From NCBI RefSeq assembly GCF_035538455.1, contig NZ_DATLKJ010000155.1:12766-76765 (forward strand): a stretch of DNA of 64,000 nt, in the 5' to 3' direction. The DNA is from Chitinophaga sp. (GTDB lineage: Bacteria > Bacteroidota > Bacteroidia > Chitinophagales > Chitinophagaceae). The position numbers and the translations under genes are program-made. Positions 23,072 through 38,290 of the stretch are shown piece by piece; within the stretch, counting starts at the first letter, position 1; each line of letters starts with the position of its first letter. The notes below the pieces were generated by a model. It was not told the DNA's origin. It did not search any database and saw only the letters and a program-made list of their open reading frames with translations.

Positions 23072-23090
23072 CTAAATTGAAATAGTAATA

Positions 23091-23669
23091 ATGACAGCTT
23101 CCCGTCTGATAGTGATAGGCGGTTCTGCAGGAGGGCTGCAGACTATATTGACCATGCTGCCTGCGCTGGATCCACAGCTCAGGGCCGCTATTATTATTGT
23201 ATTGCACCGGTATAACCAGCCTCAGTCAATGTTGGAAGATGTTCTTGCTGCGAAAACGAATCTGTCGGTAAAAGAAGCTGAAGAAAAAGAGCCACTGATG
23301 CCGGGAGTAATCTATGTTGCCCCGGCAGATTATCATTTACTGATCGAAAGAGATCATACACTGTCACTTGACTATTCGGAGAAGGTGCACTTTTGCCGTC
23401 CCAGTATAGACGTCACCTTTTCTTCCGCTGCTGCGGCCTATGGCCCGGATCTTACAGCCCTGCTGCTGTCCGGAGCCAATGATGACGGTGTGGAAGGATT
23501 GGTGGACGTGCATGATGCCGGCGGCATTACTATTGTGCAGACTCCGGATACCGCCCTGGTTGATTTTATGCCACGGCAGGCCATTGGTTCGGCGCCCGTA
23601 GATCACATACTGGACGCGCGTGAAATGGCTGTTTTTGTAAATACATTCAGTAACGGACCCGGAATATAA
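23091..23669 (+). CDS. cheB: CheB-type protein-glutamate methylesterase, catalytic domain only (no receiver)
   Basis: 192 aa with VIGGSAGGLQ (nucleophile Ser region), VLHR and LLSGANDDGVEG motifs typical of the CheB methylesterase domain. Confidence 0.8.
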   Translation: MTASRLIVIGGSAGGLQTILTMLPALDPQLRAAIIIVLHRYNQPQSMLEDVLAAKTNLSVKEAEEKEPLMPGVIYVAPADYHLLIERDHTLSLDYSEKVHFCRPSIDVTFSSAAAAYGPDLTALLLSGANDDGVEGLVDVHDAGGITIVQTPDTALVDFMPRQAIGSAPVDHILDAREMAVFVNTFSNGPGI

Positions 23670-23749
23670 ACCAACTTTTGGAGGCCGTCCTTTGGAGATG
23701 ACAGCCTGTATTGATTTGTAGCTGACTATGTTTACCCTGGAAAATTTTA

Positions 23750-25324
23750 TTGTGTATGATTTTAGTTGTAGATGATAAGCAGGAGAATATTCTTTCGATA
23801 AGAAAAACACTCGAGCAATATAACTTTGATGTAGATACGGCTACATCTGGTGAAGAAGCACTGAAGAAAATACTGAAGCACAGCTATACCCTGATCATCC
23901 TGGACGTACAGATGCCCAGTATGGATGGGTTTGAAGTAGCAGAGGCTATTTCCGGTTACAGCAAGGCAAGCGATATTCCTATCATTTTCCTGTCGGCAGT
24001 AAACAAAGACAAGCGTTTTATTGTGAAAGGATACGACTCCGGCGGTATGGACTACCTTACCAAACCGATAGATCCCGATGTGCTGTTGATGAAAGTGAAA
24101 ACCTTCTCCCGTTTGTATGAGCAATCCAAGCAGCTACAACAGATGCATCACTCGCTGAGTGAGGAGGTGGAAGTCCGTAAGCAGGCCGAAGCCGCTCTCA
24201 GCGAAAAGGTGAACGAACTGCGCACCACACTCGAAGCCTTACCACAGATAGCCTTCACACTCACAGTGGATGGCCGTATTGAATATGCCAACCGCTACTG
24301 GTTTAAGTATGCGGACGATATTCATTCATTTCCCGAGACATTGCCCATGGATAAAAGCATGGATGCATATCTGCATGAAACGCTGCGGACGGGCCAACCG
24401 CTGGAGAAAGAAGTATACCTCAAAGACAACGTAGAGAATAATTACCGCTGTCACCTGTTGCGCGTAATACCTGTAAAGGATAATAACGGTATTGTAAAAT
24501 GGATTGGTACGTTCACCGACATCGCCTATCAGAAGCAGGCCAACGAAATACTGGAGCAAAAAGTAAAAGAGAGAACAGAAGAGCTGGTAGAGATCAACAA
24601 ATCTTTGGAAGCGAGTAATCATGATCTGCAACAGTTCGCATCTGTAGCATCACATGATCTGAAAGAGCCATTACGTAAGATTCAGTTATTTGGCGCCATC
24701 ATCCGGGATAAGTTTCTGAAGGCAGATCCGCAGGCCCTGTCATACATGGAGCGGATTGTCAGCTCATCTGAGCGCATGGCGCGGCTTATCAACGATCTGC
24801 TTAACTACTCACGTCTTTCTGTAGGCGGCAGCTTCGCATTGACAGATCTGAATGAAGTAGTCCATGAAATACTCAGTGACCTGGAACTGACGATTTCAGA
24901 AAAGGAAGCACAGATTTACGTAGGACCGCTGCTCAGTGTGGACGTAATACCAGGTCAGATCAGGCAGGTATTTCAGAATATTATCAGCAATGCGTTGAAG
25001 TTTATCCGAAGGAATGTACCACCGGAAATCAGTATTACGGCAGAGCGGATAGCAGAGAAGTTTGCAGAGAGCGAAGCCCACCCAGATGGTGAATACTGCC
25101 GGATCATAGTCCGCGACAATGGCATAGGGTTCAATGAAAAGTATCTCTATAAAATATTCACCATCTTCCAAAGACTGCATGCAGCAGAGCTATATGAGGG
25201 AACGGGGATTGGATTAGCCATAGCCAAGAAGGTGATAGACAAACACCAGGGAATCATTACGGCGCGTAGTGTGGAAGGAGAGGGGGCTTCGTTTATAATT
25301 ATCTTGCCGATGGTACAGCAATAA
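23750..25324 (+). CDS. response regulator-PAS-histidine kinase (REC-coiled coil-PAS-HisKA-HATPase)
   Basis: Receiver ILVVDDKQEN..ILDVQMP..LTKP, H-box ASHDLKEPLRKI and G2 box GTGIGLAIAKK. The true start could be the ATG at 23756. Confidence 0.85.
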   Translation: MCMILVVDDKQENILSIRKTLEQYNFDVDTATSGEEALKKILKHSYTLIILDVQMPSMDGFEVAEAISGYSKASDIPIIFLSAVNKDKRFIVKGYDSGGMDYLTKPIDPDVLLMKVKTFSRLYEQSKQLQQMHHSLSEEVEVRKQAEAALSEKVNELRTTLEALPQIAFTLTVDGRIEYANRYWFKYADDIHSFPETLPMDKSMDAYLHETLRTGQPLEKEVYLKDNVENNYRCHLLRVIPVKDNNGIVKWIGTFTDIAYQKQANEILEQKVKERTEELVEINKSLEASNHDLQQFASVASHDLKEPLRKIQLFGAIIRDKFLKADPQALSYMERIVSSSERMARLINDLLNYSRLSVGGSFALTDLNEVVHEILSDLELTISEKEAQIYVGPLLSVDVIPGQIRQVFQNIISNALKFIRRNVPPEISITAERIAEKFAESEAHPDGEYCRIIVRDNGIGFNEKYLYKIFTIFQRLHAAELYEGTGIGLAIAKKVIDKHQGIITARSVEGEGASFIIILPMVQQ

Positions 25325-25358
25325 ATACAGTTCATTTTATCAAAGTGCGCTTTTAACA

Positions 25359-25413
25359 GGGGGTTACCTGGGGGTTGACTGGGGGTTGACTGGGGGTTGA
25401 CTGGGCTTTGGTA
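25359..25413 (+). repeat. 11-bp tandem repeat (gggggttgact), about 4.5 copies
   Basis: Read directly from the sequence: gggggttacct gggggttgact gggggttgact gggggttgact gggctttggta. Confidence 0.9.
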
Positions 25414-25564
25414 TACCGTTGGTATGCCTTTGATGCCAATTGCGCGCTTTTAGTACCTATGAGAATCGAATGAGAAGCCTATGAAAGCATTGTGTTAAAT
25501 ACTTGGCGCCTTTAGACAATATTGGTAAATTTAGGTAAGACGTTGTTGTTTAAACCCTTATCCC

Positions 25565-26074
25565 ATGGCAAAGATAGATTTAGGTGAAGGTGTTAAGCCG
25601 CCGTTTATGGGTACTATTCAGCATCTTTGCATCTACGAGATGCATGGGAAATATTATATACGCCTGAAGAGTTCCCTTACGGGTAAAAGGGTAAAGAAAG
25701 ACCCTGCCTTCCGCAGAACGATGGAGAATGCCGGGTTTCTCGCTGCTGCGTCTAAGATCGCATCCTGTGTATACCGTCAGCTTCCTCCGCAATATAGAAA
25801 ACATGTTTTGTACCGCCAGCTTACCGGTAAAGCTTTGCTTTTGTTAAGGGAGGGTAAGCATAGTGATGTTATTACCACTGAGCTAAAGAAAATGTGTCCG
25901 CAGGAGGCAACTGTAAAAGCCGTACGTAAACCCGTTATTCGTCGCAATCAGGCGCCTGCACTGTGGCGATATGGTAATATAGTACCCCGTTTTTTACACT
26001 GTACAAGGCCGGTTGATGTATTGAATCTTCCAACTAAGAAAGGGGCTCACCTACACAAGGTTGATGATACATAG
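25565..26074 (+). CDS. hypothetical basic protein (169 aa)
   Basis: ORF with normal composition. No family motif recognised. Confidence 0.45.
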   Translation: MAKIDLGEGVKPPFMGTIQHLCIYEMHGKYYIRLKSSLTGKRVKKDPAFRRTMENAGFLAAASKIASCVYRQLPPQYRKHVLYRQLTGKALLLLREGKHSDVITTELKKMCPQEATVKAVRKPVIRRNQAPALWRYGNIVPRFLHCTRPVDVLNLPTKKGAHLHKVDDT

Positions 26075-26349
26075 CTTTCTCTTTTACATCAGTACCTATC
26101 ATATGCCTTTCCATCCATAGAATAGCGCTATGGGATTCTACGATGCAGAGACATCTTGACTTCCGGAGGAGCATAATCACAATGAAAATAAAACTGCGGA
26201 CGGGTGGTTTTCGTTAATAATTTTAGGTAATTTGGCTGCCGGGGCCTACTGTATAAGTTATATGTTGTTATAGTTTAATGCTTTGTGGCAAGAATGGCCC
26301 AGCTGAAGTGGTATACCTACAATGACTACAACCTCCAAACATAACCGTT

Positions 26350-28134
26350 ATGCATATAGCCAAGATTGTGATAGCCATTATAAAAGCAGGCACTGAACAA
26401 TGCGAGCGGGAAGAAGATAAGAAGAGAATAAGAATCATTAACGCCCTATGCCTGACTACGGCGTCCGCAGCTATATTAATAGGTAGCCTCATTTATGTAT
26501 TTACCCGCGATTTGAGAATTGAGATTCCCGCAATATGTGAGGGGATGCTTTTTCTATCTGTTATTTTCTTTAATAAGTACAATCGGCATAATACAGCAAG
26601 TCTGTTTTTTATTTTGACCCATACTATATCAGCATTATACTTCGGTATTATTTTAGGTCAGCTTATAAATATTACACTGGTTGCTGTTTTTATTTTTGGC
26701 CTCTCTTTTCTTATCATCAGGTCGAAGCAATTATTAATCATAGCGATCTGTGCTATTGGATTGACTTTATTGCTGCTTGAAGTTAATTTTTATTATCAGA
26801 TATTTCAGCCTTTGCAACTATCACGTCAGAATCAATTTATATTAAGGTGGCTGGCCTTATTTGTACTTCTTGGTTTTGATGTATTTGGCGTATTGTTGAC
26901 CATACATTATATGAGAGAGAACCGTTTTCTTTATACCTCTCTAAAGGATTATTCAGAAAAGCTGGAGAAGTCGGTGAAGGAATTGGAGTTTGCAAATCTT
27001 TCAAAACGTGTATATCTCAGAGAAACCAGCCACGAAATACGTACCCCGTTGAATGCGGTGTTTGGCATATCTCAGCTCCTTGAGATGATTATGAATAAGG
27101 TATCAGATAATGGAAGTATAAGTCCTGCTGAATTGAGAGAAACTATTTCCCTGGTTGGGAGTTTGAACGCAGCGAGCTATTACACTCGTAATATTGTAAA
27201 CAATGTGTTGGAACTATCGACAATAGAAGCAGGAAAGCTAAATGGCGTTCAGAAGGTAGTCTTTCATCTGAGACCCTGGATTGAGAGTATTGTACAGATG
27301 CATGGATATATCGGGCAGGCAAAGGGGGTAAGAATAGCCCTAAATATTGATGAATCGACGAAGGGAGCATTATTGATCACCGACAAAATAAAACTGACCC
27401 AGATTGTTACAAACCTGTTGTCCAATGCAATAAAATTTTCACCGGAAGTAGGCGTGGTAACTATTGAACTATTTACAGGAGGAACAAACCTTTATCTGAA
27501 GGTTATTGATAACGGAGAGGGAATCAGTAAAGAAAAGCAACAGTCAATATTTCAGCCATTTGAAAGCGGGAAAAATGGATTTGTAGAAGGAACAGGGTTA
27601 GGGTTGTATATCGCGAAGTGCCTTGTAGAGCTGCTTAAAGGAACTATTACAGTGCGATCAGTCCTGGAAAGAGAAACTACCTTTGAAGTTTGTTTTCCGG
27701 AGGTTTTTGCAGATCCACTTGTTTATGTAGATGTACAGGGTGATGACAACACACCTCTATGCAGTTTACGAGAGAAGAAGATATTAATGATAGATGATGA
27801 TAAACTAGCCCGCACCTTGGTAAGTATGTACCTTACGGATGCGGGCAGTTATTTTATTCATGCGGAGAATGGTATTGAGGGAATAGAGAAGGCCCGTGTT
27901 GAGAAACCAGATCTGATTATTCTCGACTCACATATGCCCGGTATGTCGGGTAAGGAAACACTGATAAACATTCGTCATGACCAATTACTACATGATATTC
28001 CGGTAATTTTAGCATCCGGGGATGCCTATAAGGAAACACGGGACGAGATGTTAAATGCCGGAGCTGATGAGTTTCTAACCAAGCCGCTTAAATTCTCTGA
28101 ACTTCATAGGGCAATCAGTCAGTTTATGCGTTGA
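26350..28134 (+). CDS. membrane hybrid sensor histidine kinase/response regulator
   Basis: About 5-6 N-terminal TM helices, H-box TSHEIRTPLNAV, G2 box GTGLGLYIAK, and a C-terminal receiver ILMIDDD..ILDSHMPGMSG..LTKP. The exact start is uncertain. Confidence 0.85.
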   Translation: MHIAKIVIAIIKAGTEQCEREEDKKRIRIINALCLTTASAAILIGSLIYVFTRDLRIEIPAICEGMLFLSVIFFNKYNRHNTASLFFILTHTISALYFGIILGQLINITLVAVFIFGLSFLIIRSKQLLIIAICAIGLTLLLLEVNFYYQIFQPLQLSRQNQFILRWLALFVLLGFDVFGVLLTIHYMRENRFLYTSLKDYSEKLEKSVKELEFANLSKRVYLRETSHEIRTPLNAVFGISQLLEMIMNKVSDNGSISPAELRETISLVGSLNAASYYTRNIVNNVLELSTIEAGKLNGVQKVVFHLRPWIESIVQMHGYIGQAKGVRIALNIDESTKGALLITDKIKLTQIVTNLLSNAIKFSPEVGVVTIELFTGGTNLYLKVIDNGEGISKEKQQSIFQPFESGKNGFVEGTGLGLYIAKCLVELLKGTITVRSVLERETTFEVCFPEVFADPLVYVDVQGDDNTPLCSLREKKILMIDDDKLARTLVSMYLTDAGSYFIHAENGIEGIEKARVEKPDLIILDSHMPGMSGKETLINIRHDQLLHDIPVILASGDAYKETRDEMLNAGADEFLTKPLKFSELHRAISQFMR

Positions 28135-29104
28135 TAGAAAGGTTGCCGTCTTTTAACTCGTCTGATGGATGGCCGGCTATCATTGAATCGTATCTTTTCG
28201 TGAGTGTTTGTCCCCAATGAAAGTGACCGTGAATCATAAAGGATAGATTTTCGATAAATGCCTTTACTCCGTGCGTATAGTCAGTAAAGTTTGGGAGTGT
28301 ATCTACCAGACTGCAAAATTGACGAAGGTCTTCATTGTGGAAGTTGATAGCATGTTGATATGCTTCTTCCGTGCTACATTGTTGTTCGTGTTCCATCATA
28401 AGTACCAGATTTAAGACGTCGTTTCCTTTCTCCATATGTGCAGAGAAAAAATCATTTTCCCATGAGAGTATTCTGCAAGTGAGCCTTGTAAGTTCTTGTA
28501 TTACCGGATGAAAAATGACCTGATCCGGTAAGATGCAGCCTGTTATCAGCTCTGCAAGATTCACCAATGTATGAACGTTGACCGCCTTCTCCCTGATAGC
28601 AATAAACTGTTCCCATGTCGGGAAGGTCATATTTTTCCTAAAAGGTATCTCTTGTTGTATCCCATCGAAGTAAGTTTCCAGACTTGTATTAAATCGATTC
28701 AACCACCTTTCCGAACCAAGTTGTAACAGCTCATTTCTAAGTATGGGGAGATGCAAGTAGAGAGGCTCTTTTGAGTGTGATATAATGCCACGGAGGTATT
28801 TCATTGCTTTTCCACGAATTGTTTCCAATTGGCCAACAGATGAAAACTCGAAAGAATCATCAATGGTAAATGCCCATAGAAAGAAGCGACAGATAGCTGT
28901 GAGCTGTGCTTCATTGGCGCGAGGGAATAAGCACCCACCGGCATGGCCTACACCGGTTGTGATGTACTTTTTCCTGACTTTTTCCGGAAGAAAGGAGTAG
29001 TCGGTTAGCAGCCACTCACCTATTTTTTTTTCCATTGTCTGGGCGTGACGGTTTGTTGCATAAGGAAACGGGTAACGCAGGGCGTTAGGATCAAATGTGT
29101 TCAT
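28124..29104 (-). CDS. class I terpene synthase (bacterial sesquiterpene-cyclase-like)
   Basis: 326 aa from the ATG at 29104. It has an Asp-rich motif DDSFE (aa 82-86), the NSE triad NDFFSAHME (aa 217-225), Arg171 exactly 46 residues upstream of the NSE Asn (the pyrophosphate-sensor position), and a C-terminal RY pair (TKRYD). Confidence 0.8.
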   Translation of the reverse strand: MNTFDPNALRYPFPYATNRHAQTMEKKIGEWLLTDYSFLPEKVRKKYITTGVGHAGGCLFPRANEAQLTAICRFFLWAFTIDDSFEFSSVGQLETIRGKAMKYLRGIISHSKEPLYLHLPILRNELLQLGSERWLNRFNTSLETYFDGIQQEIPFRKNMTFPTWEQFIAIREKAVNVHTLVNLAELITGCILPDQVIFHPVIQELTRLTCRILSWENDFFSAHMEKGNDVLNLVLMMEHEQQCSTEEAYQHAINFHNEDLRQFCSLVDTLPNFTDYTHGVKAFIENLSFMIHGHFHWGQTLTKRYDSMIAGHPSDELKDGNLSINA

Positions 29105-29363
29105 GGTAAATTGGTTTACGTGAAAGAAAAATATTGCGTTGTGAATAGTAATGGCACCTGGTCTATAGGGAATAGCTAAAATGGACAACCTTGAAGGAAA
29201 AGAATGACAATTTACGGTATTAAAATTTTTCTGACAGCCTTATGTGAGTATGGTGATATTAAAATGTGAGGTTGATTCTTTAACTGAGCATTACTAATAT
29301 TAAGGATTTGGAGTGAACTATACCTGCATTGGGAACGCGGAATTGAGGTCTCAATAATAAGAA

Positions 29364-32076: not shown

Positions 32077-32121
32077 ACAAAACCCGCGACTAGCGCGGGT
32101 TTTAAAATTGGGTGGAGGATA
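32077..32121. repeat. 45-bp direct repeat, tRNA-proximal copy (overlaps the last 9 nt of tRNA-Ala and its terminator hairpin)
   Basis: Identical to 30765-30809. It contains the hairpin aaaacccgcg-acta-gcgcgggtttt. Confidence 0.9.
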
Positions 32122-32185
32122 ACGGGCTCGAACCGTTCACCTCAAACATGCCATGCTTGCGCTCTACCAGATGAGCTAATCCCCC
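32113..32185 (-). tRNA. tRNA-Ala (anticodon GGC)
   Basis: Hand fold: acceptor GGGGGAT/ATCCTCC with a G3:U70 pair, D-stem GCTC/GAGC, anticodon loop ATGGCAT, T-loop TTCGAGC. Length 73 nt. Confidence 0.85.
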
Positions 32186-32235
32186 ATGTGTTTCAGGAGT
32201 GCAAAAATATATTTTTTCCCGGAAATCCAAACATT

Positions 32236-32655
32236 TTATACAAAATCTTTAAAAATTCCTTCTACAGTCTCCTTTAAATCCTTTAGCAGTAAGGGTTTTC
32301 GAAGTAATTTTACGACCAGTGGGTTGGCATTTGTGCGGGTTATATCGCCATAATCGAGCGACGAAGACACCATTACAATATGGCATTGTGATTTGATCTT
32401 GGCCGGGTAACTGTCGAATGCCTGTAGAAATTCGAAGCCATCCATCTCGGGCATTTGTATATCCAGGAGGATGATGGTGGGAGGAATTTTTGGCAGGGAG
32501 ATGTTGGAAGACAGAAACTCCAGCGCTTTGTTGGCATTTGCAAATGAAAGTACCGTTCTGCTGATTTGTTGAAAGGTGATCAACTTCTCATGCAGTAATA
32601 GATCAATCTCATTGTCGTCTATCAATATGACACGAAGATCAGGTATCGAATTCAT
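32236..32655 (-). CDS. single-domain response regulator
   Basis: Start set to the ATG at 32655 (MNSIPDLRVILIDDNEID..). It has the phospho-acceptor context LLDIQMPEMDG and LRKP. It overlaps the upstream kinase gene by 17 nt. Confidence 0.8.
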   Translation of the reverse strand: MNSIPDLRVILIDDNEIDLLLHEKLITFQQISRTVLSFANANKALEFLSSNISLPKIPPTIILLDIQMPEMDGFEFLQAFDSYPAKIKSQCHIVMVSSSLDYGDITRTNANPLVVKLLRKPLLLKDLKETVEGIFKDFV

Positions 32656-33736
32656 TTTTGTTAGGGATGGTAATTTCAAATTGAGTGCCTTCACCGTATT
32701 TGGACTCAACATTAATGGTTCCGCCTATTTTACTTAAAGCTTCTTTTACGATGTATAGTCCTATACCGCTACCGGGCTTGTTATTGTTTTTGGAACGGAA
32801 AAACATCTTGAAAATGTTGTTCAGATGTTCGCTGAGAATACCGATCCCGTTGTCGCGGATCCAGATAGTAGCCTTGTGGGGCTCTACTTTGACAGTCAGG
32901 TTTACCATCGGTTCGGCTTCCTCCGGTTTTTGGTACTTAACAGCGTTGGAAATGAGATTGTTTAAAATCACGCTGATTCTGAATGTATCGCCTCTGAAGT
33001 CTACGGGTTGTTCCACATGGGTATTGAAGCGGATCTGGGTGTTCTGCGGCTGAAATACAGTGATACTGTCTTCCAGCAGGTTATTGAAGTCGATCTTCTC
33101 ATATTCCACTTCCAGCCTGGAGTTCCGGTAATATTCAATGATCTTCTGAATAAACCCATCCAGCTTGAGTACACAGGATTCCACCATGGGGATGTATCCG
33201 TTCGGGTCTGTTACAGAATTGTCGAGTCGCGACAGGTTAATGATGCCCAGTACAGACATTAATGGAGAACGGAGATCGTGAGAGGTGGAATAAATGAAGC
33301 GGTTTAACTCATCGTTGGTTTTCTCCAGCTCGTCAATTTTGTCACGCAGCTGCCGGCGGGTGCGGTAGATTTCGTAAGCGTTGTTGATAGTACGGTGCAG
33401 TTCTGTTTCATCCCAGGGCTTTTTGATGTAGGAATAAATATGACCCTTGTTGATAGCGTCTATAATATCTTCTACATCCGTATAACCCGTCAGCAGGATA
33501 CGTATCGGATCAGGAAGGACGTCCTTTATCTCATGGAAGAACTCAACTCCGGTAGATACGGGCATTTTCTGATCCGCAATGATGATGTGCACCATCACTT
33601 CCTTCAGTAATTGCTTGCCTTCCTGCGCAGAATTAGCGGTGTAGATCTCGTAGCTTCTGCGGAAGCTGGCTTTGAATGCATTCAGGTTGTGAATTTCATC
33701 ATCGATATATAATATTCTAATGCGGTTTTCTTTCAT
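32639..33736 (-). CDS. response regulator-histidine kinase (REC-HisKA-HATPase)
   Basis: Receiver ILYIDDEIHN..IIADQKMP..IKKP, H-box STSHDLRSPLMSV and G2 box GSGIGLYIVKE. Confidence 0.85.
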   Translation of the reverse strand: MKENRIRILYIDDEIHNLNAFKASFRRSYEIYTANSAQEGKQLLKEVMVHIIIADQKMPVSTGVEFFHEIKDVLPDPIRILLTGYTDVEDIIDAINKGHIYSYIKKPWDETELHRTINNAYEIYRTRRQLRDKIDELEKTNDELNRFIYSTSHDLRSPLMSVLGIINLSRLDNSVTDPNGYIPMVESCVLKLDGFIQKIIEYYRNSRLEVEYEKIDFNNLLEDSITVFQPQNTQIRFNTHVEQPVDFRGDTFRISVILNNLISNAVKYQKPEEAEPMVNLTVKVEPHKATIWIRDNGIGILSEHLNNIFKMFFRSKNNNKPGSGIGLYIVKEALSKIGGTINVESKYGEGTQFEITIPNKNEFDT

Positions 33737-33751
33737 TAGAGGGACTTATGG

Positions 33752-35926
33752 TTAAGACAGGTGGTTTGTTAAGTTTAAGGGTAAATATATAATAAATTCT
33801 GCTCCTTTGTCGGGGGCTGAGTTTACAACGATTTTACCGTTGTGTTTCTCTATGATGCTGAATACGATCGAAAGCCCCAGCCCTGTACCTTCTCCCACAT
33901 CCTTGGTAGTGAAGAACGGGTCGAAGATTTTCTCTTTCACTTCTTCAGACATCCCTACACCCGTATCTTTTATAGAGATAATTGCAAATTCATTTTCCTG
34001 TTTCGTGGTAATGGTAATGGATTCATCTTCCTGTTCTTTCTTTGTTCTGATGGCGTTGAGCGCATTAGAAAGAACGTTCATGAACACCTGGTTTACCTTA
34101 CCGGCATAGCATTCGATTTTGGGCAATTCAGCATAATGTTTTACAATACGTACATTCGGCGGTATGGCATTGCGAAGCAGTACCAGGGTAGAATCCAGTC
34201 CTTCGTGAATGTCGATTGATTTGACATCGCTTTCATCCAGGCGGCTGAAAGTTCTTAATCCCTTTACTATTTCCGCAGTGCGTGCGGCACCATCTTCAAT
34301 TCCTTTGATCAGCGATGATATTTCTTCATGTATGTAATCGATGTCTATTTCCTGTTTAAAGGATTCGATGTTTGACAGCTCCTTTTGAATATCAGTATGA
34401 TCTCCTAGTTTTTCATAGCGGTTGAGCAGACTTCTCAGATCTGCTATGTCCATTTTCAGCGGTTTGATATTGGACGTTACAAAGTTAATGGGATTATTGA
34501 TTTCATGGGCAATCCCTGCCGTTAACTGACCAAGAGACGCCATTTTTTCTTTTTCCACCAGCCGGGTCTGCGCCTCCTTCAGGTTGACGAGTGCGATATT
34601 CAGATCACGGTTACTGTTTTGCAGTTCTTCTGTTCTTTCCTGTACCTTGGCTTCGAGTATAACGTTTTGTTCTCTTACCAGTTGCTCATTCTCTTTGGAT
34701 ATAGAGAGGGCAAGCGCCTGGGATGCCTCTTTCTCCGCCTTGAAGGTGTTGATTTTATCAGCCAGGGCAAAAGACAGCAGGATGACTTCAATACCAGACC
34801 CTATTACCAGGATGTGACTGGTAAAGATGTTGTAAGGGATAATACCCACATCTTTCAGTACAAAGGTGATAACGGCGACAATAAATATCGTCCACGCCAG
34901 TACGAATATTCTGGCTGGCTTGGAATGCTTGAAAGCCTGGATAATGGCAAATAAGAGTATGAAGCTCACACCGGTGATGGCCAGGAAGTCGATCAGGGCA
35001 TATGCTACCGAGAAGTGACCCATGAGCGACAATACTATCGTGCTCGAATATACGATTATGAAGAGGTTGAATATCCGATTGGCCCACGGCGCCCTTTCCT
35101 TTACATGCAGGAAGCTCTGTACAAACAGCAGTACTGCAATACCCGATAATGCCCCTACCCATAATACGCTTTGCTCTGTGATATAAGTGTTCCCGTGCCA
35201 GAAGAAGCGGTACCCGAAACCATGCAGGCATATCTGGGTAAGTCCGACGGTGGCGATGTAAATGATATAGTAGAAATAGCTCCAGTCTTTTACGGAGAAG
35301 AAGATGAAGGTATTGTACAGGATCATTACCAGGATGATGCCTATGTAGATGGACAGCAGCAGGTCATCATTATACAATTTGTTATAGATCTCCCGTGGCG
35401 TACCGATGTAGATAGGGACCAGTATGGCCTCGCGGCTCTGGATACGGAAGAGAAAGGTTTGTGCGGTACCGTTGGGGATGCTGATATTGTAAACAAAGTT
35501 CTGGTGATTGACCGGCCTTGATTTCATTGGGCGTAGTTCTCCGCCTGGTATGATATGATATTGACCTGTTGCATCCGGGTAGTACAGGTCTATAAGATCC
35601 AGAATGGGGTAGGTGACGTCGAACATCAGGTAATTGGCTCCGGTATTGTTCTTCACGGTGAATCTCAGCCAGATGGCATCGGTTGTAAGACCGAAGTTGG
35701 GTATCTGTTTGGGGAGTGGCCGGAAGAGGTGAGAATTTCTGGCGTCGGCGAACTGCATATTGCCGCTGGAGTCAAGGAAGTATTCTACCTGGCTGTATTC
35801 TGCCAGCTGTACCGGATGGCTGTGGGAAATGGTGATGGTGTCTGCCCAAACAGGTATCCAGGCGCCGGCTACTAACAGTAACAGGCATACGAATTTAAAG
35901 AATGCCGGTTTGATCAGCTGTTGCAT
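33752..35926 (-). CDS. 7TMR-DISM sensor histidine kinase (extracellular DISMED2-type domain, 7 TM helices, HisKA, HATPase)
   Basis: Signal peptide, a ~170-aa extracellular beta-rich domain, seven hydrophobic helices, a coiled coil, H-box GIAHEINNPINFV and G2 box GTGLGLSIV. Confidence 0.85.
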   Translation of the reverse strand: MQQLIKPAFFKFVCLLLLVAGAWIPVWADTITISHSHPVQLAEYSQVEYFLDSSGNMQFADARNSHLFRPLPKQIPNFGLTTDAIWLRFTVKNNTGANYLMFDVTYPILDLIDLYYPDATGQYHIIPGGELRPMKSRPVNHQNFVYNISIPNGTAQTFLFRIQSREAILVPIYIGTPREIYNKLYNDDLLLSIYIGIILVMILYNTFIFFSVKDWSYFYYIIYIATVGLTQICLHGFGYRFFWHGNTYITEQSVLWVGALSGIAVLLFVQSFLHVKERAPWANRIFNLFIIVYSSTIVLSLMGHFSVAYALIDFLAITGVSFILLFAIIQAFKHSKPARIFVLAWTIFIVAVITFVLKDVGIIPYNIFTSHILVIGSGIEVILLSFALADKINTFKAEKEASQALALSISKENEQLVREQNVILEAKVQERTEELQNSNRDLNIALVNLKEAQTRLVEKEKMASLGQLTAGIAHEINNPINFVTSNIKPLKMDIADLRSLLNRYEKLGDHTDIQKELSNIESFKQEIDIDYIHEEISSLIKGIEDGAARTAEIVKGLRTFSRLDESDVKSIDIHEGLDSTLVLLRNAIPPNVRIVKHYAELPKIECYAGKVNQVFMNVLSNALNAIRTKKEQEDESITITTKQENEFAIISIKDTGVGMSEEVKEKIFDPFFTTKDVGEGTGLGLSIVFSIIEKHNGKIVVNSAPDKGAEFIIYLPLNLTNHLS

Positions 35927-35942
35927 ACACTAAAACGGATAG

Positions 35943-37061
35943 TCATTGATGATAGTTAAAAATCTGTTCGATATCTACATAATATCTTCCGGAGTCCATA
36001 GGGTGGTCAAGTCCTATTTCCCGGCACACATGGGCTATAGCGGCGCCTCCGAGCATTACAGCGGAGGAGAGCTGTGGCCAGGTGCTGATGGTTTTACCAA
36101 TTTCCTGGAGTGATGCCTGCATTTTGGAGGACAGTGACTTAATATCCACAATCCGGTCTACCATCTGCATTCTTTCAGGGCCCTGCATGTTCCGTATCAC
36201 TTCGGGCGTAACTTCATCAGGAATGCGGCCGTGCAGGATAGGTCTGTCCGGGTTCAGGTCAAATCGTTCTACATCTATCATGCCGCGGTCGCTGGTGTCC
36301 ATTACTACAGGAATGCGTAGCTCCCGGGCTTTGAGCCTGCTCAGTATTTTGATGTCGAGGCTGTCGCATTCTTCTACTAATATATCCAGTTTTCCGCCGT
36401 TTATAAGAAAATCATTTATATTATTTTCCGTGATACCACTATCATAACAGATGACGGGGAGAAAAGGATCAATTTCGGCGATTTCCCTGGCCACCATCAC
36501 TGTTTTTAGTATACCGATTGTATGTACGCTGGTCCGGACGCGGTTCATGTTGCTGAGTTCCAGCCTATCGAAGTCGGCTATACGAAGTTCGCCGCAAAGC
36601 CGTTCTATAGCCAGGGCGATGGCTACTGACTGTCCTACGGACAGGCCAATAACGCCTATTTTACGGGTTTGGAGTTGTTCTCTCTCCGCAGTGGTTATTT
36701 TTTGTTTATTCCGGCTGGTGCGTAATTCAATGAATTCGGTTTCATCGAGGAGGTGTACCATACGGGAAGACCAGGGGTAGTATACCCAGACGCCGTAGGC
36801 TTCGGCCGGCGTATCGCCAAGATGGGCGGCCACCATTTGTTCCAGGGCGTCATCGGTCAGTCTTTCAGTGGGATGTCTTGATTTAATGAGTTCTAACAGC
36901 TGGCATGTTAATTCATCGGATATTTTTATCCCGGGATGTTGCTGTAACAACAAAGTGAAGGCGGATAATTGTTCAGGGTCCTGTAATCTGTAGAAGCTTA
37001 CTGTACGTTCGTCTTTAGATTGGTTGCTGTTCTTTAGCGCATTTGTAATCGTTTGATTCAT
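35943..37061 (-). CDS. ThiF/E1-like adenylyltransferase-family protein (Rv1355c/MoeY N-terminal-like)
   Basis: KIGVIGLSVGQSVAIAL nucleotide-binding loop, DFDRLELSNMNRV motif and WVYYPW segment. These resemble Rv1355c-family E1-like proteins as I remember them. Confidence 0.7.
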   Translation of the reverse strand: MNQTITNALKNSNQSKDERTVSFYRLQDPEQLSAFTLLLQQHPGIKISDELTCQLLELIKSRHPTERLTDDALEQMVAAHLGDTPAEAYGVWVYYPWSSRMVHLLDETEFIELRTSRNKQKITTAEREQLQTRKIGVIGLSVGQSVAIALAIERLCGELRIADFDRLELSNMNRVRTSVHTIGILKTVMVAREIAEIDPFLPVICYDSGITENNINDFLINGGKLDILVEECDSLDIKILSRLKARELRIPVVMDTSDRGMIDVERFDLNPDRPILHGRIPDEVTPEVIRNMQGPERMQMVDRIVDIKSLSSKMQASLQEIGKTISTWPQLSSAVMLGGAAIAHVCREIGLDHPMDSGRYYVDIEQIFNYHQ

Positions 37062-37072
37062 CTTTCTTCTGT

Positions 37073-37801
37073 TTAAAGCTTTCGTAAAAGCGGCAGATCG
37101 CTGGTGGCTGCTGACATGATCCGCAGGTCGTAGTCGACCTGCATTTCGCCTTTAGGACCTTTTTCTATCATCGTCTGTACAGGGTTATGTCGGAGGCTCA
37201 TCATCCTTTCCCTGTCTTCGGGATGGGCACTTTTGAGCTCATGTGGATCTTTCAACACAAGAGCGGTGGCAATCAGGTCTTCCTTTGGGTAATAAAAGGT
37301 GCCCTGGTTGCCTATATTGGTCATGATCTGGTATCCGGTTCTGATACTGTTTCTGAATGTGGTCTGGGCGCAAAAGCCCAGGAATGTGGTAATGGGAAGC
37401 TGGTTTAATACTGCATTTACCACTCTGAAGAGCACAATGCTTCCGATGCCCCAGCCTGCTACTTCGCGGGAATTCCACAATCCGCAGAATTCGCCGGTAC
37501 CTCCCGCTGCTGCGAGGTCTTTCACAATATCAAAGATCCGCGGGTCCATTGTATTAATGGCTGACTCGATCGGCAAAGGCACACTACCCCCTGCCAATTG
37601 AATCCTGCAGCCTCCGTACATTTTAGTATAATCATCATTGCTAACGGTAATAATATACGTATAAGGCTCATACATCCAATCCACATTAGCGGACGTAACT
37701 TTGGTTACGCCATAAGCCTCCAGCACTTTACGGTGACCTGCAATGTATTGCAAACACTCCTCTGGATACTCTATCGCCTTAAATACTCTTACCTTAAGCA
37801 T
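37073..37801 (-). CDS. hypothetical protein (242 aa), first gene of the E1-like/kinase operon; GNAT-like fold is only a guess
   Basis: Well-formed ORF 11 nt upstream of the E1-like gene. The only suggestive motif is EVAGWGIGS. No family is recognised with confidence. Confidence 0.6.
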   Translation of the reverse strand: MLKVRVFKAIEYPEECLQYIAGHRKVLEAYGVTKVTSANVDWMYEPYTYIITVSNDDYTKMYGGCRIQLAGGSVPLPIESAINTMDPRIFDIVKDLAAAGGTGEFCGLWNSREVAGWGIGSIVLFRVVNAVLNQLPITTFLGFCAQTTFRNSIRTGYQIMTNIGNQGTFYYPKEDLIATALVLKDPHELKSAHPEDRERMMSLRHNPVQTMIEKGPKGEMQVDYDLRIMSAATSDLPLLRKL

Positions 37802-38290
37802 GTATGGGGATGCTTTAAAAATAAACTTTGAATCACAACAGGGTAGAGAATTATCCCTTCCTGTTTATATAGCACTGATTATGTTAACAATGTTTAAAAG
37901 AGAAATAATTTAACCCCATAATCATAACATAATCATCAAACTCTGCATAGTTAAAGTGTTGGCAAAAGTTACAGGGATCACAGCTATATCTCCGCAGTTT
38001 GCATCTCCAGGGATAATTCCATTGTTGACAAAAATTAAAGCTAAACATCTTCACATGAAGGTAATGGTAAAATAGTATTATTTCTATAATTATCCATAAA
38101 CCCGGCTCCCTTTTTTGAATAATTGTATGCAGTGATCCTTCTGTCTTATTGGTTGTCAATAAAATAGACATCTGCAAATAACATACGGATGTAATATCCG
38201 TTTAGTACTGGTGTAAAATTTGCTACTTTTTTATCCGTTTACATTTAGATTTGTATCCGTCTCGATTTAAACCATTTCAATCCTTGCAAT

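What the first reader, a model, noticed from the sequence alone, without database searches (positions are those of the whole stretch)
32236..38171. Five-gene operon wiring an E1/ThiF-like adenylyltransferase and an unassignable 242-aa protein to a 7TM-DISM kinase phosphorelay
On the minus strand (37801 down to 32236) five ORFs are packed with gaps of 11, 16 and 15 nt and one 17-nt overlap. In order they are an unknown 242-aa protein, a 372-aa E1/ThiF-like protein, a 7TMR-DISM sensor kinase, a REC-HisKA-HATPase kinase, and a single-domain receiver. The E1-like protein has an IGVIGLSVGQS nucleotide loop and a DFDRLELSNMNR motif. ThiF-family enzymes adenylate a protein or peptide C-terminus or a small carboxylate. 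Here no GG-terminated carrier, cyclodehydratase, nitroreductase domain or sulfurtransferase is adjacent. The 242-aa partner has no family signature I can name, only a weak GNAT-like AGWGIGS loop. About 80 nt upstream on the same strand, an AT-rich ORF (37884..38171; 54 aa from an internal Met) ends in a Cys/aromatic-rich segment (FCQQWNYPWRCKLRRYSCDPCNFCQHF). That ORF could be a substrate or precursor peptide, or it could be noise. My hypothesis is an adenylation-dependent signal molecule or modified peptide that is made by the operon and sensed by its own 7TM receptor kinase. I cannot map this architecture to a described system.
Basis: partly seen in the sequence, partly recalled or inferred. 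Interest (0 to 1): 0.7.

Follow-up and report, generated by a model that had tools for sequence, protein, structure and literature searches.

The report
Lipid-signal synthase wired to sensor kinase
A Chitinophaga operon joins two enzymes predicted to make a fatty-acyl amino acid and cyclise it into a reactive oxazolone ring to a membrane sensor kinase relay; this pairing recurs across soil and water Bacteroidota and gives a testable clue that these poorly understood lipids act as signals.

Summary
The "unassignable" 242-aa protein can be assigned. Its confident AlphaFold model matches AHL synthases and the N-acyl amino acid synthase FeeM best, and its family profile aligns with actinobacterial TrzA-like acyltransferases (hhalign 90.8%, E 1e-6). 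The 372-aa E1 is the ThiF-cyclase half of the Rv1355c/TrzS/OxzB oxazolone synthetase family. It keeps all invariant residues but lacks the nitroreductase desaturase domain. The biosynthetic half is therefore a known cassette (OxzAB, TrzAS, TyzACB) that had not been reported in Bacteroidota.

The signalling link is new. In 79 of 80 species loci the acyltransferase lies next to a 7TMR-DISM kinase, a REC-kinase and a receiver. The tailoring enzyme varies: ThiF-nitroreductase, ThiF alone, FAD oxidase, SAM or ICMT-type methyltransferase. Starting from kinase homologues recovers the same module. The layout parallels Ralstonia phcBSRQ.

I read this as a self-made lipid signal and receptor circuit. 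That reading is inferred, not shown. The Cys-rich small ORF is not a gene. Novelty: new variant of a known kind.

The parts
37073..37801 (-). 242-aa GNAT-fold protein, a predicted N-acyl amino acid synthase (TrzA/OxzA/FeeM-like). It is the constant biosynthetic partner of the kinase across loci.
   Evidence: The AF2 model has pLDDT 89. Its top PDB fold matches are the AHL synthases BjaI/EsaI/RpaI/LasI/TofI and FeeM 2g0b (TM 0.61/0.79, rmsd 3.2-3.6 A). hhalign of family profile A1 against TrzA-like profile A3 gives 90.8% probability, E 1.2e-6, 181 columns. There is no Pfam or NCBIfam hit. Invariant residues are R66, E104, C106, W109, N110, S111, G116xGxGS121 and Y170-Y171-P172-K173.
35943..37061 (-). 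372-aa stand-alone ThiF-like ATP-dependent cyclase of the Rv1355c/TrzS/OxzB clade, without the flavin desaturase (nitroreductase) domain.
   Evidence: NCBIfam NF005901 'Rv1355c family' scores 465 bits over profile positions 4-340 of 722, against a cut-off of 476. It is 43-51% identical to actinobacterial Rv1355c-family proteins. All invariant residues of the domain are kept and the protein ends at the domain boundary. No nitroreductase-domain homologue was found anywhere in the window.
33752..35926 (-). 7TMR-DISM sensor histidine kinase: signal peptide, DISMED2 periplasmic domain, 7TM domain, HisKA and HATPase_c. It is the candidate receptor.
   Evidence: Pfam hits PF07696 (E 4e-34), PF07695 (E 8e-47, full length), PF00512 and PF02518. 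It is adjacent to the acyltransferase module in 79 of 80 loci. The 7TM domain co-varies with the type of tailoring enzyme.
32639..33736 (-). Soluble REC-HisKA-HATPase_c hybrid with no DNA-binding domain, matching the PhcR architecture.
   Evidence: Pfam REC, HisKA and HATPase_c. It is conserved downstream of the kinase in the related loci.
32236..32712 (-). Single-domain receiver, matching the PhcQ architecture. The likely start is the internal Met at 32655 (139 aa), which gives the 17-nt overlap.
   Evidence: Pfam Response_reg E 6e-11. Orthologues of 129-137 aa begin at the position of the internal Met.
38049..38099 (-). Conserved non-coding block (~50 nt, contains the inverted repeat CTTCA-TG-TGAAG) in the 489-nt region between the operon and the divergent superoxide dismutase gene. 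It may be an operator or promoter, but for which gene is unknown. It lies inside the 'small ORF'.
   Evidence: The block is nearly invariant across ten Chitinophaga loci while its flanks diverge and carry indels. It occurs once in the window. No Rfam match.
32078..32186 (-). 3' boundary of the operon: tRNA-Ala(GGC) at 32109-32186, then an intrinsic terminator at 32078-32104.
   Evidence: ARAGORN, Rfam tRNA at 54 bits, and an 11-bp stem followed by a T-run. A TAnnTTTG box at 32202-32209 suggests the tRNA has its own promoter.

Best explanation
The operon encodes a small-lipid biosynthetic pair fused into one unit with a multi-kinase phosphorelay.

Step 1 (inferred from homology). The 242-aa GNAT-fold enzyme transfers a fatty acyl group from acyl-CoA or acyl-ACP to the amino group of an amino acid, giving an N-acyl amino acid.

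Step 2 (inferred from homology to TrzS/OxzB, whose chemistry has been shown experimentally). The 372-aa ThiF-like enzyme adenylates the free alpha-carboxylate with ATP. The amide oxygen then attacks, closing a 2-alkyl-5(4H)-oxazolone. The flavin desaturase domain is missing here, so the product should be the saturated, neutral, hydrolytically labile oxazolone, unless an unlinked oxidase acts on it.

Step 3 (inferred from conserved synteny, co-variation and architectural analogy; not shown). This lipid, or its N-acyl amino acid precursor, is perceived by the 7TMR-DISM kinase, most likely in its 7TM domain.

Step 4 (inferred). The kinase signals through the REC-kinase hybrid and the single-domain receiver to an output that is not encoded in the locus.

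Taken together this is an autoinducer-type synthase/receptor circuit. Its layout parallels the Ralstonia phcBSRQ quorum-sensing operon: signal synthase, membrane kinase, REC-kinase, REC.
For: Enzyme identities.
- The fold search puts AHL synthases and FeeM at the top. These are the same two structures reported as closest to the characterised TyzA (PMC10404671).
- The profile-profile match to TrzA-like proteins that sit directly upstream of TrzS-like genes is 90.8%, E 1.2e-6.
- The E1 scores 465 bits against the Rv1355c family model, is 43-51% identical to actinobacterial members, and keeps every invariant residue.
- A natural ThiF-GNAT fusion protein exists (P0347).

Known chemistry. OxzA/OxzB and TrzA/TrzS make an N-acyl amino acid and then an oxazolone. 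ATP is required. In TrzS cyclisation precedes desaturation, and the saturated cyclised intermediate accumulates when the oxidase is disabled.

Coupling to the relay.
- The genes are 11-16 nt apart with no strong internal terminator.
- The acyltransferase is adjacent to a 7TMR-DISM kinase in 79 of 80 species loci spanning Chitinophagales, Cytophagales and Sphingobacteriales, despite gene-order changes.
- The reverse search, from the kinase sensor region, recovers the module in 3 of 3 look-ups, including Mucilaginibacter and a Crocinitomicaceae MAG.
- The tailoring gene is swapped between lineages: ThiF-nitroreductase 36 loci, ThiF only 28, FAD oxidase 11, ICMT-type carboxyl methyltransferase 3, SAM methyltransferase 2. 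The acyltransferase and kinase stay constant. This is the pattern expected for a diversifying signal.
- After matching on REC-kinase and kinase-domain identity, loci with the same tailoring type have more similar 7TM domains: +4.5 points, 34 of 38 focal loci. The effect is +1.9 points for the periplasmic domain.
- The phcBSRQ layout is the same (PMC8578825).
- The authors of the oxazolone papers themselves suspect a signalling role and call the physiological role unresolved.
Against: - There is no experimental evidence for product, export or sensing.
- The link of the 242-aa family to characterised acyltransferases rests on fold plus one remote profile match. No Pfam, NCBIfam or PDB sequence hit was found, and profile comparisons with single relatives and with a three-sequence TrzA profile were not significant.
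- The amino acid and acyl substrates are unknown.
- Characterised oxazolones are acid- and alcohol-labile and hydrolyse within hours at pH 8. The saturated form predicted here may be no more than a short-lived intermediate.
- Characterised 7TMR-DISM proteins are not known to bind lipids.
- No transporter and no DNA-binding regulator are in the locus.
- The co-variation test is not a proper phylogenetic method. The focal loci are not independent, and block-wise recombination could contribute.
- In Proteobacteria and Actinobacteria the homologous cassettes are not next to histidine kinases. Some actinobacterial ones lie next to c-di-GMP genes.
Confidence: 0.55

Rival explanations
1. The lipid is an output, not the input. 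The 7TMR-DISM kinase senses an unrelated external or envelope cue, such as a carbohydrate or ion through its DISMED2 domain. The co-transcribed enzymes make an N-acyl amino acid or oxazolone lipid that serves as a membrane constituent, antimicrobial, pigment or stress protectant. Co-location would then reflect co-regulation only.
For: Published suggestions for N-acyl amino acids and oxazolones include antimicrobial, membrane and stress-associated roles, and production is inducible by antibiotics. The DISMED2 domain is a periplasmic sensor domain in its own right. No exporter is in the locus. A superoxide dismutase gene lies divergently upstream in all Chitinophaga loci.
Against: The locus contains no DNA-binding response regulator that could make the enzymes a direct transcriptional output. 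The enzymes lie upstream in the same operon as the relay. The acyltransferase-kinase adjacency survives gene-order shuffling and tailoring-enzyme replacement over three orders. The 7TM domain, rather than the periplasmic domain, tracks the tailoring chemistry.
Confidence: 0.3
2. The GNAT protein acylates a protein rather than a free amino acid, for example a lysine of the receiver or kinase. The ThiF protein activates a protein or peptide C-terminus. The pair would then regulate the phosphorelay post-translationally.
For: Many GNATs are protein acetyltransferases, and GCN5/PCAF appear lower in the fold list. Most characterised ThiF/E1 enzymes act on macromolecules. Family members fused to TIR, LRR or Mrr domains exist.
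Against: The top fold matches and the profile match are to small-molecule N-acyltransferases. The ThiF protein belongs to the one clade shown to act on small molecules. No GG-terminated beta-grasp protein or conserved small ORF lies nearby. The alternative partners (ICMT-type and SAM methyltransferases, FAD oxidase) fit small-lipid tailoring.
Confidence: 0.06
3. A RiPP-like pathway. The Cys-rich small ORF 37884-38177 is a precursor peptide whose C-terminus is adenylated by the E1.
For: The ORF exists, has a Cys/aromatic-rich tail, and lies about 80 nt upstream on the same strand.
Against: In Chitinophaga species whose acyltransferase is 95% identical, the frame is interrupted and the Cys-rich part is read in other frames or lost through indels. 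Only a ~50-nt nucleotide block is conserved. The ORF has no match in any other genus. The E1 clade acts on N-acyl amino acids.
Confidence: 0.02
4. An anti-phage defence or conflict system built on an E1-like enzyme.
For: There are weak PADLOC hits of the E1 to CBASS E1-E2 models, at most 28 bits. Some family members are fused to TIR or Mrr domains.
Against: The PADLOC hits are generic Rossmann-domain similarity, against 465 bits to the Rv1355c family. The other four proteins have no defence-family hit apart from a generic ATPase match. The module sits at a stable chromosomal position with vertical-looking distribution.
Confidence: 0.02

Closest known systems
TrzAS (Rv1356c/Rv1355c) of Mycobacterium tuberculosis and relatives; OxzAB of Pseudoalteromonas rubra; TyzACB of M. 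tuberculosis. These are N-acyl amino acid to oxazolone pathways (PMC12856293, bioRxiv 10.1101/2020.06.11.147165, PMC10404671).
   Same: Both have an N-acyltransferase with an AHL-synthase/FeeM-like fold adjacent to a ThiF-like ATP-dependent cyclase of the same clade. The E1 here scores 465 bits to the Rv1355c model and is 43-51% identical to members. The acyltransferase family aligns with TrzA-like proteins at 90.8% hhalign probability. Orthologous Bacteroidota loci carry the full ThiF-nitroreductase fusion.
   Different: In this window the flavin desaturase domain is absent, so the predicted product is a saturated oxazolone. The acyltransferase is too diverged for any Pfam, NCBIfam or PDB sequence hit. 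The phylum is different: the N-acyl tyrosine paper lists Pseudomonadota, Actinomycetota and Planctomycetota as producer phyla (abstract), and nothing in the papers I searched places the cassette in Bacteroidota. Above all, the cassette is embedded in an operon with a 7TMR-DISM kinase, a REC-kinase and a receiver, which is not described for any of the known systems.
[quoted passage not shown]
   Same: Both are single operons encoding a lipid-signal synthase, a membrane sensor histidine kinase, a soluble REC + histidine-kinase protein without a DNA-binding domain, and a single-domain receiver. In Ralstonia the synthase and sensor group together by signal type, and a comparable co-variation is seen here. 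In both the signal chemistry neutralises a lipid carboxylate: a methyl ester there, an oxazolone or (in some loci) a methyl ester here.
   Different: No homology of the synthase was shown. PhcB is a methyltransferase acting on a hydroxy fatty acid. PhcS is not described as a 7TMR-DISM protein in the paper read. Homology between the relay proteins could not be tested because no phc sequences were available. Signalling here is entirely inferred.
Synthase genes adjacent to membrane kinase receptors: LuxM/LuxN, CqsA/CqsS, LqsA/LqsS (from my own knowledge; not tested here).
   Same: An autoinducer synthase gene lies next to a multi-pass membrane histidine kinase that detects the lipophilic product within its transmembrane region.
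   Different: The synthase families, sensor domains and phyla all differ. NCBIfam matches to LuxN/LuxQ here cover only the generic kinase and receiver domains.
LuxI-type AHL synthases and FeeM/NasY N-acyl amino acid synthases.
   Same: They give the best structural matches to the 242-aa model. Both share the GNAT core, with the beta4-alpha3 loop (AGWGIGS) in the position of the CoA/phosphopantetheine-binding loop.
   Different: No sequence-level match to the Pfam models was found for any of 28 family members. The protein has an extra C-terminal ~50 residues. The acceptor substrate is unknown.
Stand-alone ThiF + GNAT pairs on Streptomyces and Kitasatospora plasmids (L082, L088).
   Same: The ThiF-only protein (388-390 aa) is 43% identical to the window's E1 over more than 90% of its length and is followed by a GNAT gene.
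   Different: That GNAT (about 200-210 aa) shows no detectable similarity to the 242-aa family. No kinase is adjacent. The pairs are uncharacterised.

Membership tests
Oxazolone biosynthesis cassette (OxzAB / TrzAS / TyzACB) | ThiF-like ATP-dependent cyclase of the Rv1355c/TrzS/OxzB clade with an intact adenylation site | tested here: met
   NF005901 scores 465.3 bits over profile positions 4-340 of 722. This is just below the full-length cut-off of 476 because only half the model is present. The protein is 43-51% identical to Rv1355c-family proteins. All invariant residues are kept, including G136/G139/G143, D163, D165, R174, K186 and the E231-C232-D233 motif.
Oxazolone biosynthesis cassette (OxzAB / TrzAS / TyzACB) | Adjacent N-acyl amino acid synthase homologous to TrzA/TyzA/OxzA | tested here: met
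   The gene lies 11 nt upstream. The fold matches FeeM and BjaI, as reported for TyzA. hhalign against the TrzA-like family gives 90.8%, E 1.2e-6. The homology is remote: comparisons with single sequences and with a three-sequence profile were not significant.
Oxazolone biosynthesis cassette (OxzAB / TrzAS / TyzACB) | Flavin-dependent oxidase (nitroreductase-family) domain or gene that desaturates C-alpha/C-beta | tested here: not met
   The E1 ends at the domain boundary. tblastn with the orthologous nitroreductase domain finds nothing in the 64-kb window at E<=0.01. The domain is present as a fusion in 36 of 80 related loci. An unlinked oxidase elsewhere in the genome cannot be excluded.
Oxazolone biosynthesis cassette (OxzAB / TrzAS / TyzACB) | Product is an N-acyl oxazolone | not testable with these tools
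   This needs expression plus LC-MS with an acid-free quench, as described in PMC12856293.
LuxI-type AHL synthase (Pfam Autoind_synth) | Sequence match to the family model | tested here: not met
   No Pfam hit for the window protein or for any of 28 family members at E<=10, apart from weak Acetyltransf_1 hits in 3 members. There is no PDB sequence hit with the profile. The similarity is structural only.
Protein-activating E1 / MoeB / ThiF systems | Partner beta-grasp carrier with a C-terminal GG, or a sulfurtransferase/rhodanese or E2 partner | tested here: not met
   No such ORF is in or around the operon. NCBIfam scores to ThiF/MoeB/TcdA/UbaA models are 15-60 bits, against 465 for Rv1355c.
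RiPP pathway with an E1-like enzyme (MccB / PaaA type) | Conserved precursor peptide gene next to the E1 | tested here: not met
   The small ORF's frame is not conserved in the closest relatives and is absent elsewhere.
7TMR-DISM receptor histidine kinases | DISMED2 periplasmic domain + 7TMR-DISM_7TM + HisKA/HATPase_c | tested here: met
   PF07696 E 4e-34, PF07695 E 8e-47 (profile positions 2-205 of 205), PF00512 and PF02518.
phc-type quorum-sensing operon (phcBSRQ) | Operon layout: synthase, membrane kinase, REC + kinase protein without DNA-binding domain, single REC | tested here: met
   The phc layout comes from PMC8578825. This is a resemblance of architecture only.
phc-type quorum-sensing operon (phcBSRQ) | Homology to PhcB/PhcS/PhcR/PhcQ and a demonstrated signal-sensor relationship | not tested
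   No phc sequences were available in the collections searched. The synthase here belongs to a different enzyme family. Sensing cannot be tested computationally.
Anti-phage defence systems (PADLOC) | Significant match of the components to defence-system models | tested here: not met
   Only generic E1-domain hits of at most 28 bits and a generic ATPase hit were found. The acyltransferase, kinase and receiver have none.

The most novel reading that the evidence does not exclude
This module, present in at least 565 Bacteroidota species, is a phylum-wide cell-cell or self-signalling system. In it, N-acyl-amino-acid-derived lipids (oxazolones, methyl esters, oxidised forms) are the autoinducers and the 7TM domain of a 7TMR-DISM kinase is their receptor. 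That would give the first physiological role and first receptor for bacterial oxazolone/N-acyl amino acid lipids, the first lipid ligand class for 7TMR-DISM receptors, and a native quorum-sensing-type system for environmental Bacteroidota, for which I know of no LuxI/LuxR-type system (my own knowledge; not checked here).
Probability: 0.4. Interest if true: 0.85.

Novelty: new variant of a known kind. Interest (0 to 1): 0.66.

Why it matters
The papers that characterised bacterial oxazolone pathways state that the physiological role of these lipids is a major unresolved question, and they only speculate about signalling. Here the same enzyme cassette is built into an operon with a sensor kinase relay. 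The link is kept across three orders of Bacteroidota while the tailoring chemistry is swapped. This supplies a concrete candidate receptor and a simple set of experiments: make the compound, add it back, and read kinase activity.

It would also point to a native chemical communication system in abundant soil, rhizosphere and freshwater Bacteroidota, and to a ligand class for the poorly understood 7TMR-DISM receptors. Separately, it extends the oxazolone/N-acyl amino acid cassette to a fourth phylum, assigns a function to a large family annotated at best as 'hypothetical' or 'N-acetyltransferase domain-containing' (593 clusters at 50% identity), and identifies a natural ThiF-only version that should make saturated oxazolones.

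Tried and rejected
Sequence searches with the 242-aa protein that gave nothing:
- Pfam and NCBIfam.
- Pfam scan of 28 family members, which gave only three weak Acetyltransf_1 hits.
- PDB sequence search with the single protein and with the family profile.

Profile comparisons that were not significant:
- Against the GNAT next to a Streptomyces ThiF-only gene.
- Against a hypothetical protein downstream of a Mycolicibacterium Rv1355c gene.
- Against a single Rhodococcus TrzA-like protein, E 0.015.
- Against a three-sequence TrzA profile, E 0.022.
Only the 24-sequence profile gave a convincing match.

Other checks:
- Small ORF as a precursor peptide: rejected on frame conservation.
- Structured RNA in the leader or operon: no Rfam match apart from the tRNA.
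- Sigma-70 consensus scan: 18 sites against 13.8 expected, and not appropriate for Bacteroidota.
- The Bacteroidota -7 box TAnnTTTG is absent on the operon strand upstream of the first gene, so the promoter remains unidentified.
- Defence-system reading: rejected.
- Literature searches for any earlier link between these enzymes and 7TMR-DISM kinases or Bacteroidota found nothing in the held library. This is not proof that no such report exists.

Not attempted:
- A structure for the E1. The alignment I had contains sequences the prediction tool does not accept, and the sequence evidence was already strong.

Full report
OBSERVATION

- 37073-37801, 242 aa
- 35943-37061, 372 aa
- 33752-35926, 724 aa
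- 32639-33736, 365 aa
- 32236-32712, 158 aa, or 139 aa from the internal Met at 32655

The gaps are 11, 16 and 15 nt. The last gene overlaps the fourth by 17 nt if the internal Met is used. Orthologues of 129-137 aa begin at that position.

On the minus strand the scan lists only one weak terminator-like site inside the operon (35297-35280, within the kinase gene) and no strong one. Downstream come a tRNA-Ala(GGC) at 32109-32186, with its own TAnnTTTG box, and then a strong terminator at 32078-32104. The window comes from a Chitinophaga: the 242-aa protein is 95% identical to those of C. eiseniae, C. dinghuensis and C. qingshengii.

THE 372-aa E1

Its best family match by a wide margin is NCBIfam NF005901, 'Rv1355c family protein'. 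The score is 465 bits over profile positions 4-340 of 722, so only the N-terminal half of the model is present. ThiF, MoeB, TcdA and UbaA models score 15-60 bits. By tblastn it is 43-51% identical to actinobacterial Rv1355c-family proteins.

[quoted passage not shown] With the acyltransferase TrzA (Rv1356c) it converts tryptophan and acyl-CoA into N-acyl tryptazolones (PMC12856293). The same chemistry was first shown for OxzA/OxzB of Pseudoalteromonas (bioRxiv 10.1101/2020.06.11.147165) and for TyzACB (PMC10404671).

I aligned the window protein with TrzS-like proteins, full-length Bacteroidota orthologues and ThiF-only proteins. It keeps every invariant residue of the domain: the G136/G139/S141/G143 loop, D163-F-D165, N171, N173-R174, K186, E231-C232-D233, K238, R242 and others. 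It stops exactly where the linker to the oxidase domain begins in the fused proteins. No homologue of that oxidase domain is present anywhere in the 64-kb window.

THE 242-aa PROTEIN

No Pfam, NCBIfam or PDB sequence match was found. It is nevertheless a large, well-conserved family:
- 704 clusters at 90% identity
- 593 clusters at 50% identity with E<=1e-3
- relatives in at least 565 GTDB species

An AlphaFold2 model built from a 28-sequence alignment is confident (pLDDT 89, pTM 0.86). Its best PDB matches are the AHL synthases BjaI, EsaI, RpaI, MesI, TofI and LasI, and the N-acyl amino acid synthase FeeM (2g0b: TM 0.61/0.79, rmsd 3.2-3.6 A). FeeM and BjaI are exactly the structures reported as closest to the characterised TyzA.

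To test homology directly I recovered TrzA-like genes. One sits directly upstream of a TrzS-like gene and a GGDEF-EAL gene in Nocardia farcinica. Others lie divergently beside Rv1355c-family genes on Rhodococcus plasmids. I collected their family and compared profiles. With single sequences or a three-sequence profile the match was not significant. With a 24-sequence profile it reached 90.8% probability, E 1.2e-6, over 181 columns, and it aligned the invariant R66, E104, W109 and Y171-P172 with the invariant R, E, W and Y-P of the TrzA-like family.

A natural fusion protein, ThiF + this domain, also exists (P0347).

I conclude that the 242-aa protein is a remote member of the TrzA/TyzA/OxzA/FeeM-like N-acyl amino acid synthases. 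The conclusion is an inference from fold, one remote profile match and genomic context.

THE ENZYME PAIR

In TrzS, cyclisation precedes desaturation. The saturated cyclised intermediate accumulates when oxygen is limiting or when the oxidase domain is crippled. A ThiF-only enzyme should therefore produce a saturated 2-alkyl-5(4H)-oxazolone, unless an unlinked oxidase acts on it. Characterised oxazolones are labile to acid and alcohols and hydrolyse within hours at pH 8.

ThiF-only + GNAT pairs also occur on Streptomyces and Kitasatospora plasmids. The GNAT in those pairs is not detectably related to this family.

THE LINK TO THE KINASE RELAY

This is the part that is not described elsewhere.

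Among 80 species loci fetched with the 242-aa family, the acyltransferase gene is next to a 7TMR-DISM kinase in 79; in the remaining one the contig ends. The loci cover Chitinophaga, Flavipsychrobacter, Taibaiella, Niabella, Dyadobacter, Cytophaga, Pedobacter, Solitalea, Parapedobacter and others. The REC-kinase follows the kinase, or lies divergently upstream in two Cytophaga-like loci. A small receiver follows in most loci. Outside Chitinophaga a further 154-aa receiver gene is usually transcribed divergently upstream.

Gene order changes between lineages: the ThiF gene can lie before or after the acyltransferase. The tailoring enzyme is also replaced:

| Tailoring enzyme | Loci (of 80) |
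|---|---|
| ThiF-nitroreductase fusion | 36 |
| ThiF only (all Chitinophaga, Pedobacter, Niabella, Solitalea, Danxiaibacter) | 28 |
| FAD_binding_4 oxidase | 11 |
| Membrane ICMT-family carboxyl methyltransferase | 3 |
| Class-I SAM methyltransferase | 2 |

ThiF cyclisation acts on the lipid's free carboxylate, and ICMT-family enzymes are carboxyl methyltransferases, so the ICMT-type partner would plausibly act there too. The target of the class-I methyltransferase was not examined; methyltransferase tailoring is known for stieleriacines (PMC12479983).

The reverse test also holds. Homologues of the kinase's sensor half at 35-45% identity were looked up in three contexts: a Crocinitomicaceae MAG, Mucilaginibacter sp. 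PAMC 26640 and a metagenomic contig. All three show the same module, and the Mucilaginibacter locus has the window's exact order.

CO-VARIATION

I split the kinase into its periplasmic DISMED2, 7TM and kinase parts. I then asked whether loci with the same type of tailoring enzyme have more similar sensor parts than expected from their relatedness. REC-kinase identity and kinase-domain identity served as the proxies for relatedness.

In a regression on 2346 locus pairs, the same-type term was +0.028 for the 7TM domain (0 of 500 label permutations reached it). It was about zero for DISMED2 and +0.004 for the acyltransferase.

After dereplication to 40 loci and matching of triplets, same-type pairs were:
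- 4.5 points more identical in the 7TM domain (34 of 38 focal loci)
- 3.6 points in the acyltransferase
- 1.9 points in DISMED2

The focal loci are not independent and the method is not a proper phylogenetic comparison, so this is suggestive only. One point argues against simple linkage or recombination: the DISMED2 coding region lies closer to the enzyme genes than the 7TM region does, yet it shows the smaller effect.

MECHANISM

The best-supported reading is a self-produced lipid and its receptor.
1. The acyltransferase makes an N-acyl amino acid (inferred from homology).
2. The ThiF enzyme converts it with ATP into a neutral, labile oxazolone (inferred from homology to enzymes with demonstrated chemistry).
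3. The 7TMR-DISM kinase perceives the product, probably in the membrane-embedded 7TM domain (inferred from synteny, co-variation and analogy).
4. The kinase signals through the REC-kinase and the single-domain receiver to an output encoded elsewhere (inferred).

The layout matches the Ralstonia phcBSRQ quorum-sensing operon. There PhcB makes a fatty-acid methyl ester, PhcS is the sensor kinase, PhcR is a REC + kinase protein without a DNA-binding domain, and PhcQ is a lone receiver. PhcB and PhcS also group together by signal type (PMC8578825). This is a resemblance of architecture, not a demonstrated homology.

The main rival is that the kinase senses something else and the lipid is an output or a co-regulated product. 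It is weakened by the absence of a DNA-binding regulator in the locus and by the 7TM co-variation, but it is not excluded. I put the signal/receptor reading at about 0.4-0.55 and the enzyme assignments at about 0.8.

THE SMALL ORF

The 97-codon ORF at 37884-38177 is not a gene. In Chitinophaga species whose acyltransferase is 95% identical, the frame is broken. The Cys-rich part falls in a region with indels, and the one conserved stretch is read in different frames in different species.

What is conserved is a ~50-nt nucleotide block at 38049-38099 that contains the inverted repeat CTTCA-TG-TGAAG, followed by a shorter TTTATCCCGGG block. It occurs once in the window and has no Rfam match. It lies between the operon and the divergent superoxide dismutase gene, so I cannot say which gene it serves.

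NOVELTY

The enzyme cassette is known from Pseudomonadota, Actinomycetota and Planctomycetota (abstract of PMC12479983). I found no report of it in Bacteroidota, none of a natural ThiF-only version with this acyltransferase, and none of any link to a histidine kinase in the held library. The authors of the oxazolone papers call the physiological role unresolved and point only to neighbouring c-di-GMP genes as a hint of signalling.

I therefore rate this a new variant of a known kind. Its interest comes from making the signalling hypothesis directly testable and from its breadth, with relatives in at least 565 species.

Noticed in passing
window 38049-38099 (minus strand), plus a second short block near 38000-38010: A ~50-nt non-coding block containing the inverted repeat CTTCA-TG-TGAAG is nearly invariant across ten Chitinophaga loci, while the surrounding intergenic DNA diverges. 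It lies between the operon and the divergent superoxide dismutase gene. It has no Rfam match and occurs once in the window. Its function is unknown; it may be an operator or an unusual promoter.
   Followed up: partly
window 32109-32186 (minus) and 32078-32104 (minus): A tRNA-Ala(GGC) lies about 50 nt downstream of the last operon gene on the same strand. A TATTTTTG box sits at 32202-32209, and a strong terminator follows. The operon has no terminator of its own before the tRNA.
   Followed up: partly
window 28124-29188 (minus): A 354-aa protein with a terpene synthase family 2 metal-binding domain (Pfam E 6e-33) lies about 3 kb downstream of the operon. This is a second small-molecule gene in the neighbourhood.
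   Followed up: no
window about 20200-27700: Further histidine kinase and receiver genes give tblastn hits at 20208-20927, 21192-22133, 23759-24157, 24533-25312 and 26959-27699. A second region rich in two-component genes therefore lies nearby.
   Followed up: no
proteins P0256, P0258, P0366, P0296, P0347 (representatives search): Members of the 242-aa family occur fused to a TIR domain, to leucine-rich repeats, to an Mrr-type restriction endonuclease domain, to a ThiF domain, and (as a fragment) to an HATPase_c kinase domain. The TIR, LRR and Mrr fusions hint that some members work in other contexts, possibly conflict systems.
   Followed up: partly
L082 5911-7709 and L088 3896-5670 (Streptomyces plasmids): ThiF-only proteins 43% identical to the window's E1 are followed by a GNAT gene of about 200-210 aa. 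That GNAT shows no detectable similarity to the 242-aa family. This looks like an independent, uncharacterised ThiF-only/acyltransferase pairing in Actinomycetota.
   Followed up: partly
L083, L084, L087 (Rhodococcus plasmids and a Nocardia farcinica replicon): TrzA/TrzS-like genes are flanked by GGDEF or GGDEF-EAL genes, as reported for M. tuberculosis. This is a second, independent association of the cassette with signalling genes.
   Followed up: no
L054 8746-9384, L062 8744-9382, L077 8756-9394: In three loci the tailoring gene between the acyltransferase and the kinase is a 212-aa membrane protein of the isoprenylcysteine carboxyl methyltransferase family. Enzymes of this family methylate the carboxylate of a lipidated amino acid.
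   Followed up: partly
L018 7486-7932: An IS200-like transposase gene is inserted between the ThiF gene and the acyltransferase gene in one Chitinophagaceae MAG.
   Followed up: no
L089 8153-8872 (Crocinitomicaceae MAG): In this locus the gene after the kinase is a 239-aa REC-PAS protein instead of the REC-HisKA-HATPase hybrid, so the relay is variable downstream of the kinase.
   Followed up: no
L026 and L043: Two loci carrying this Bacteroidota module come from MAGs labelled Azovibrio restrictus and Bifidobacteriaceae. The most likely cause is binning contamination rather than real occurrence in those taxa.
   Followed up: no
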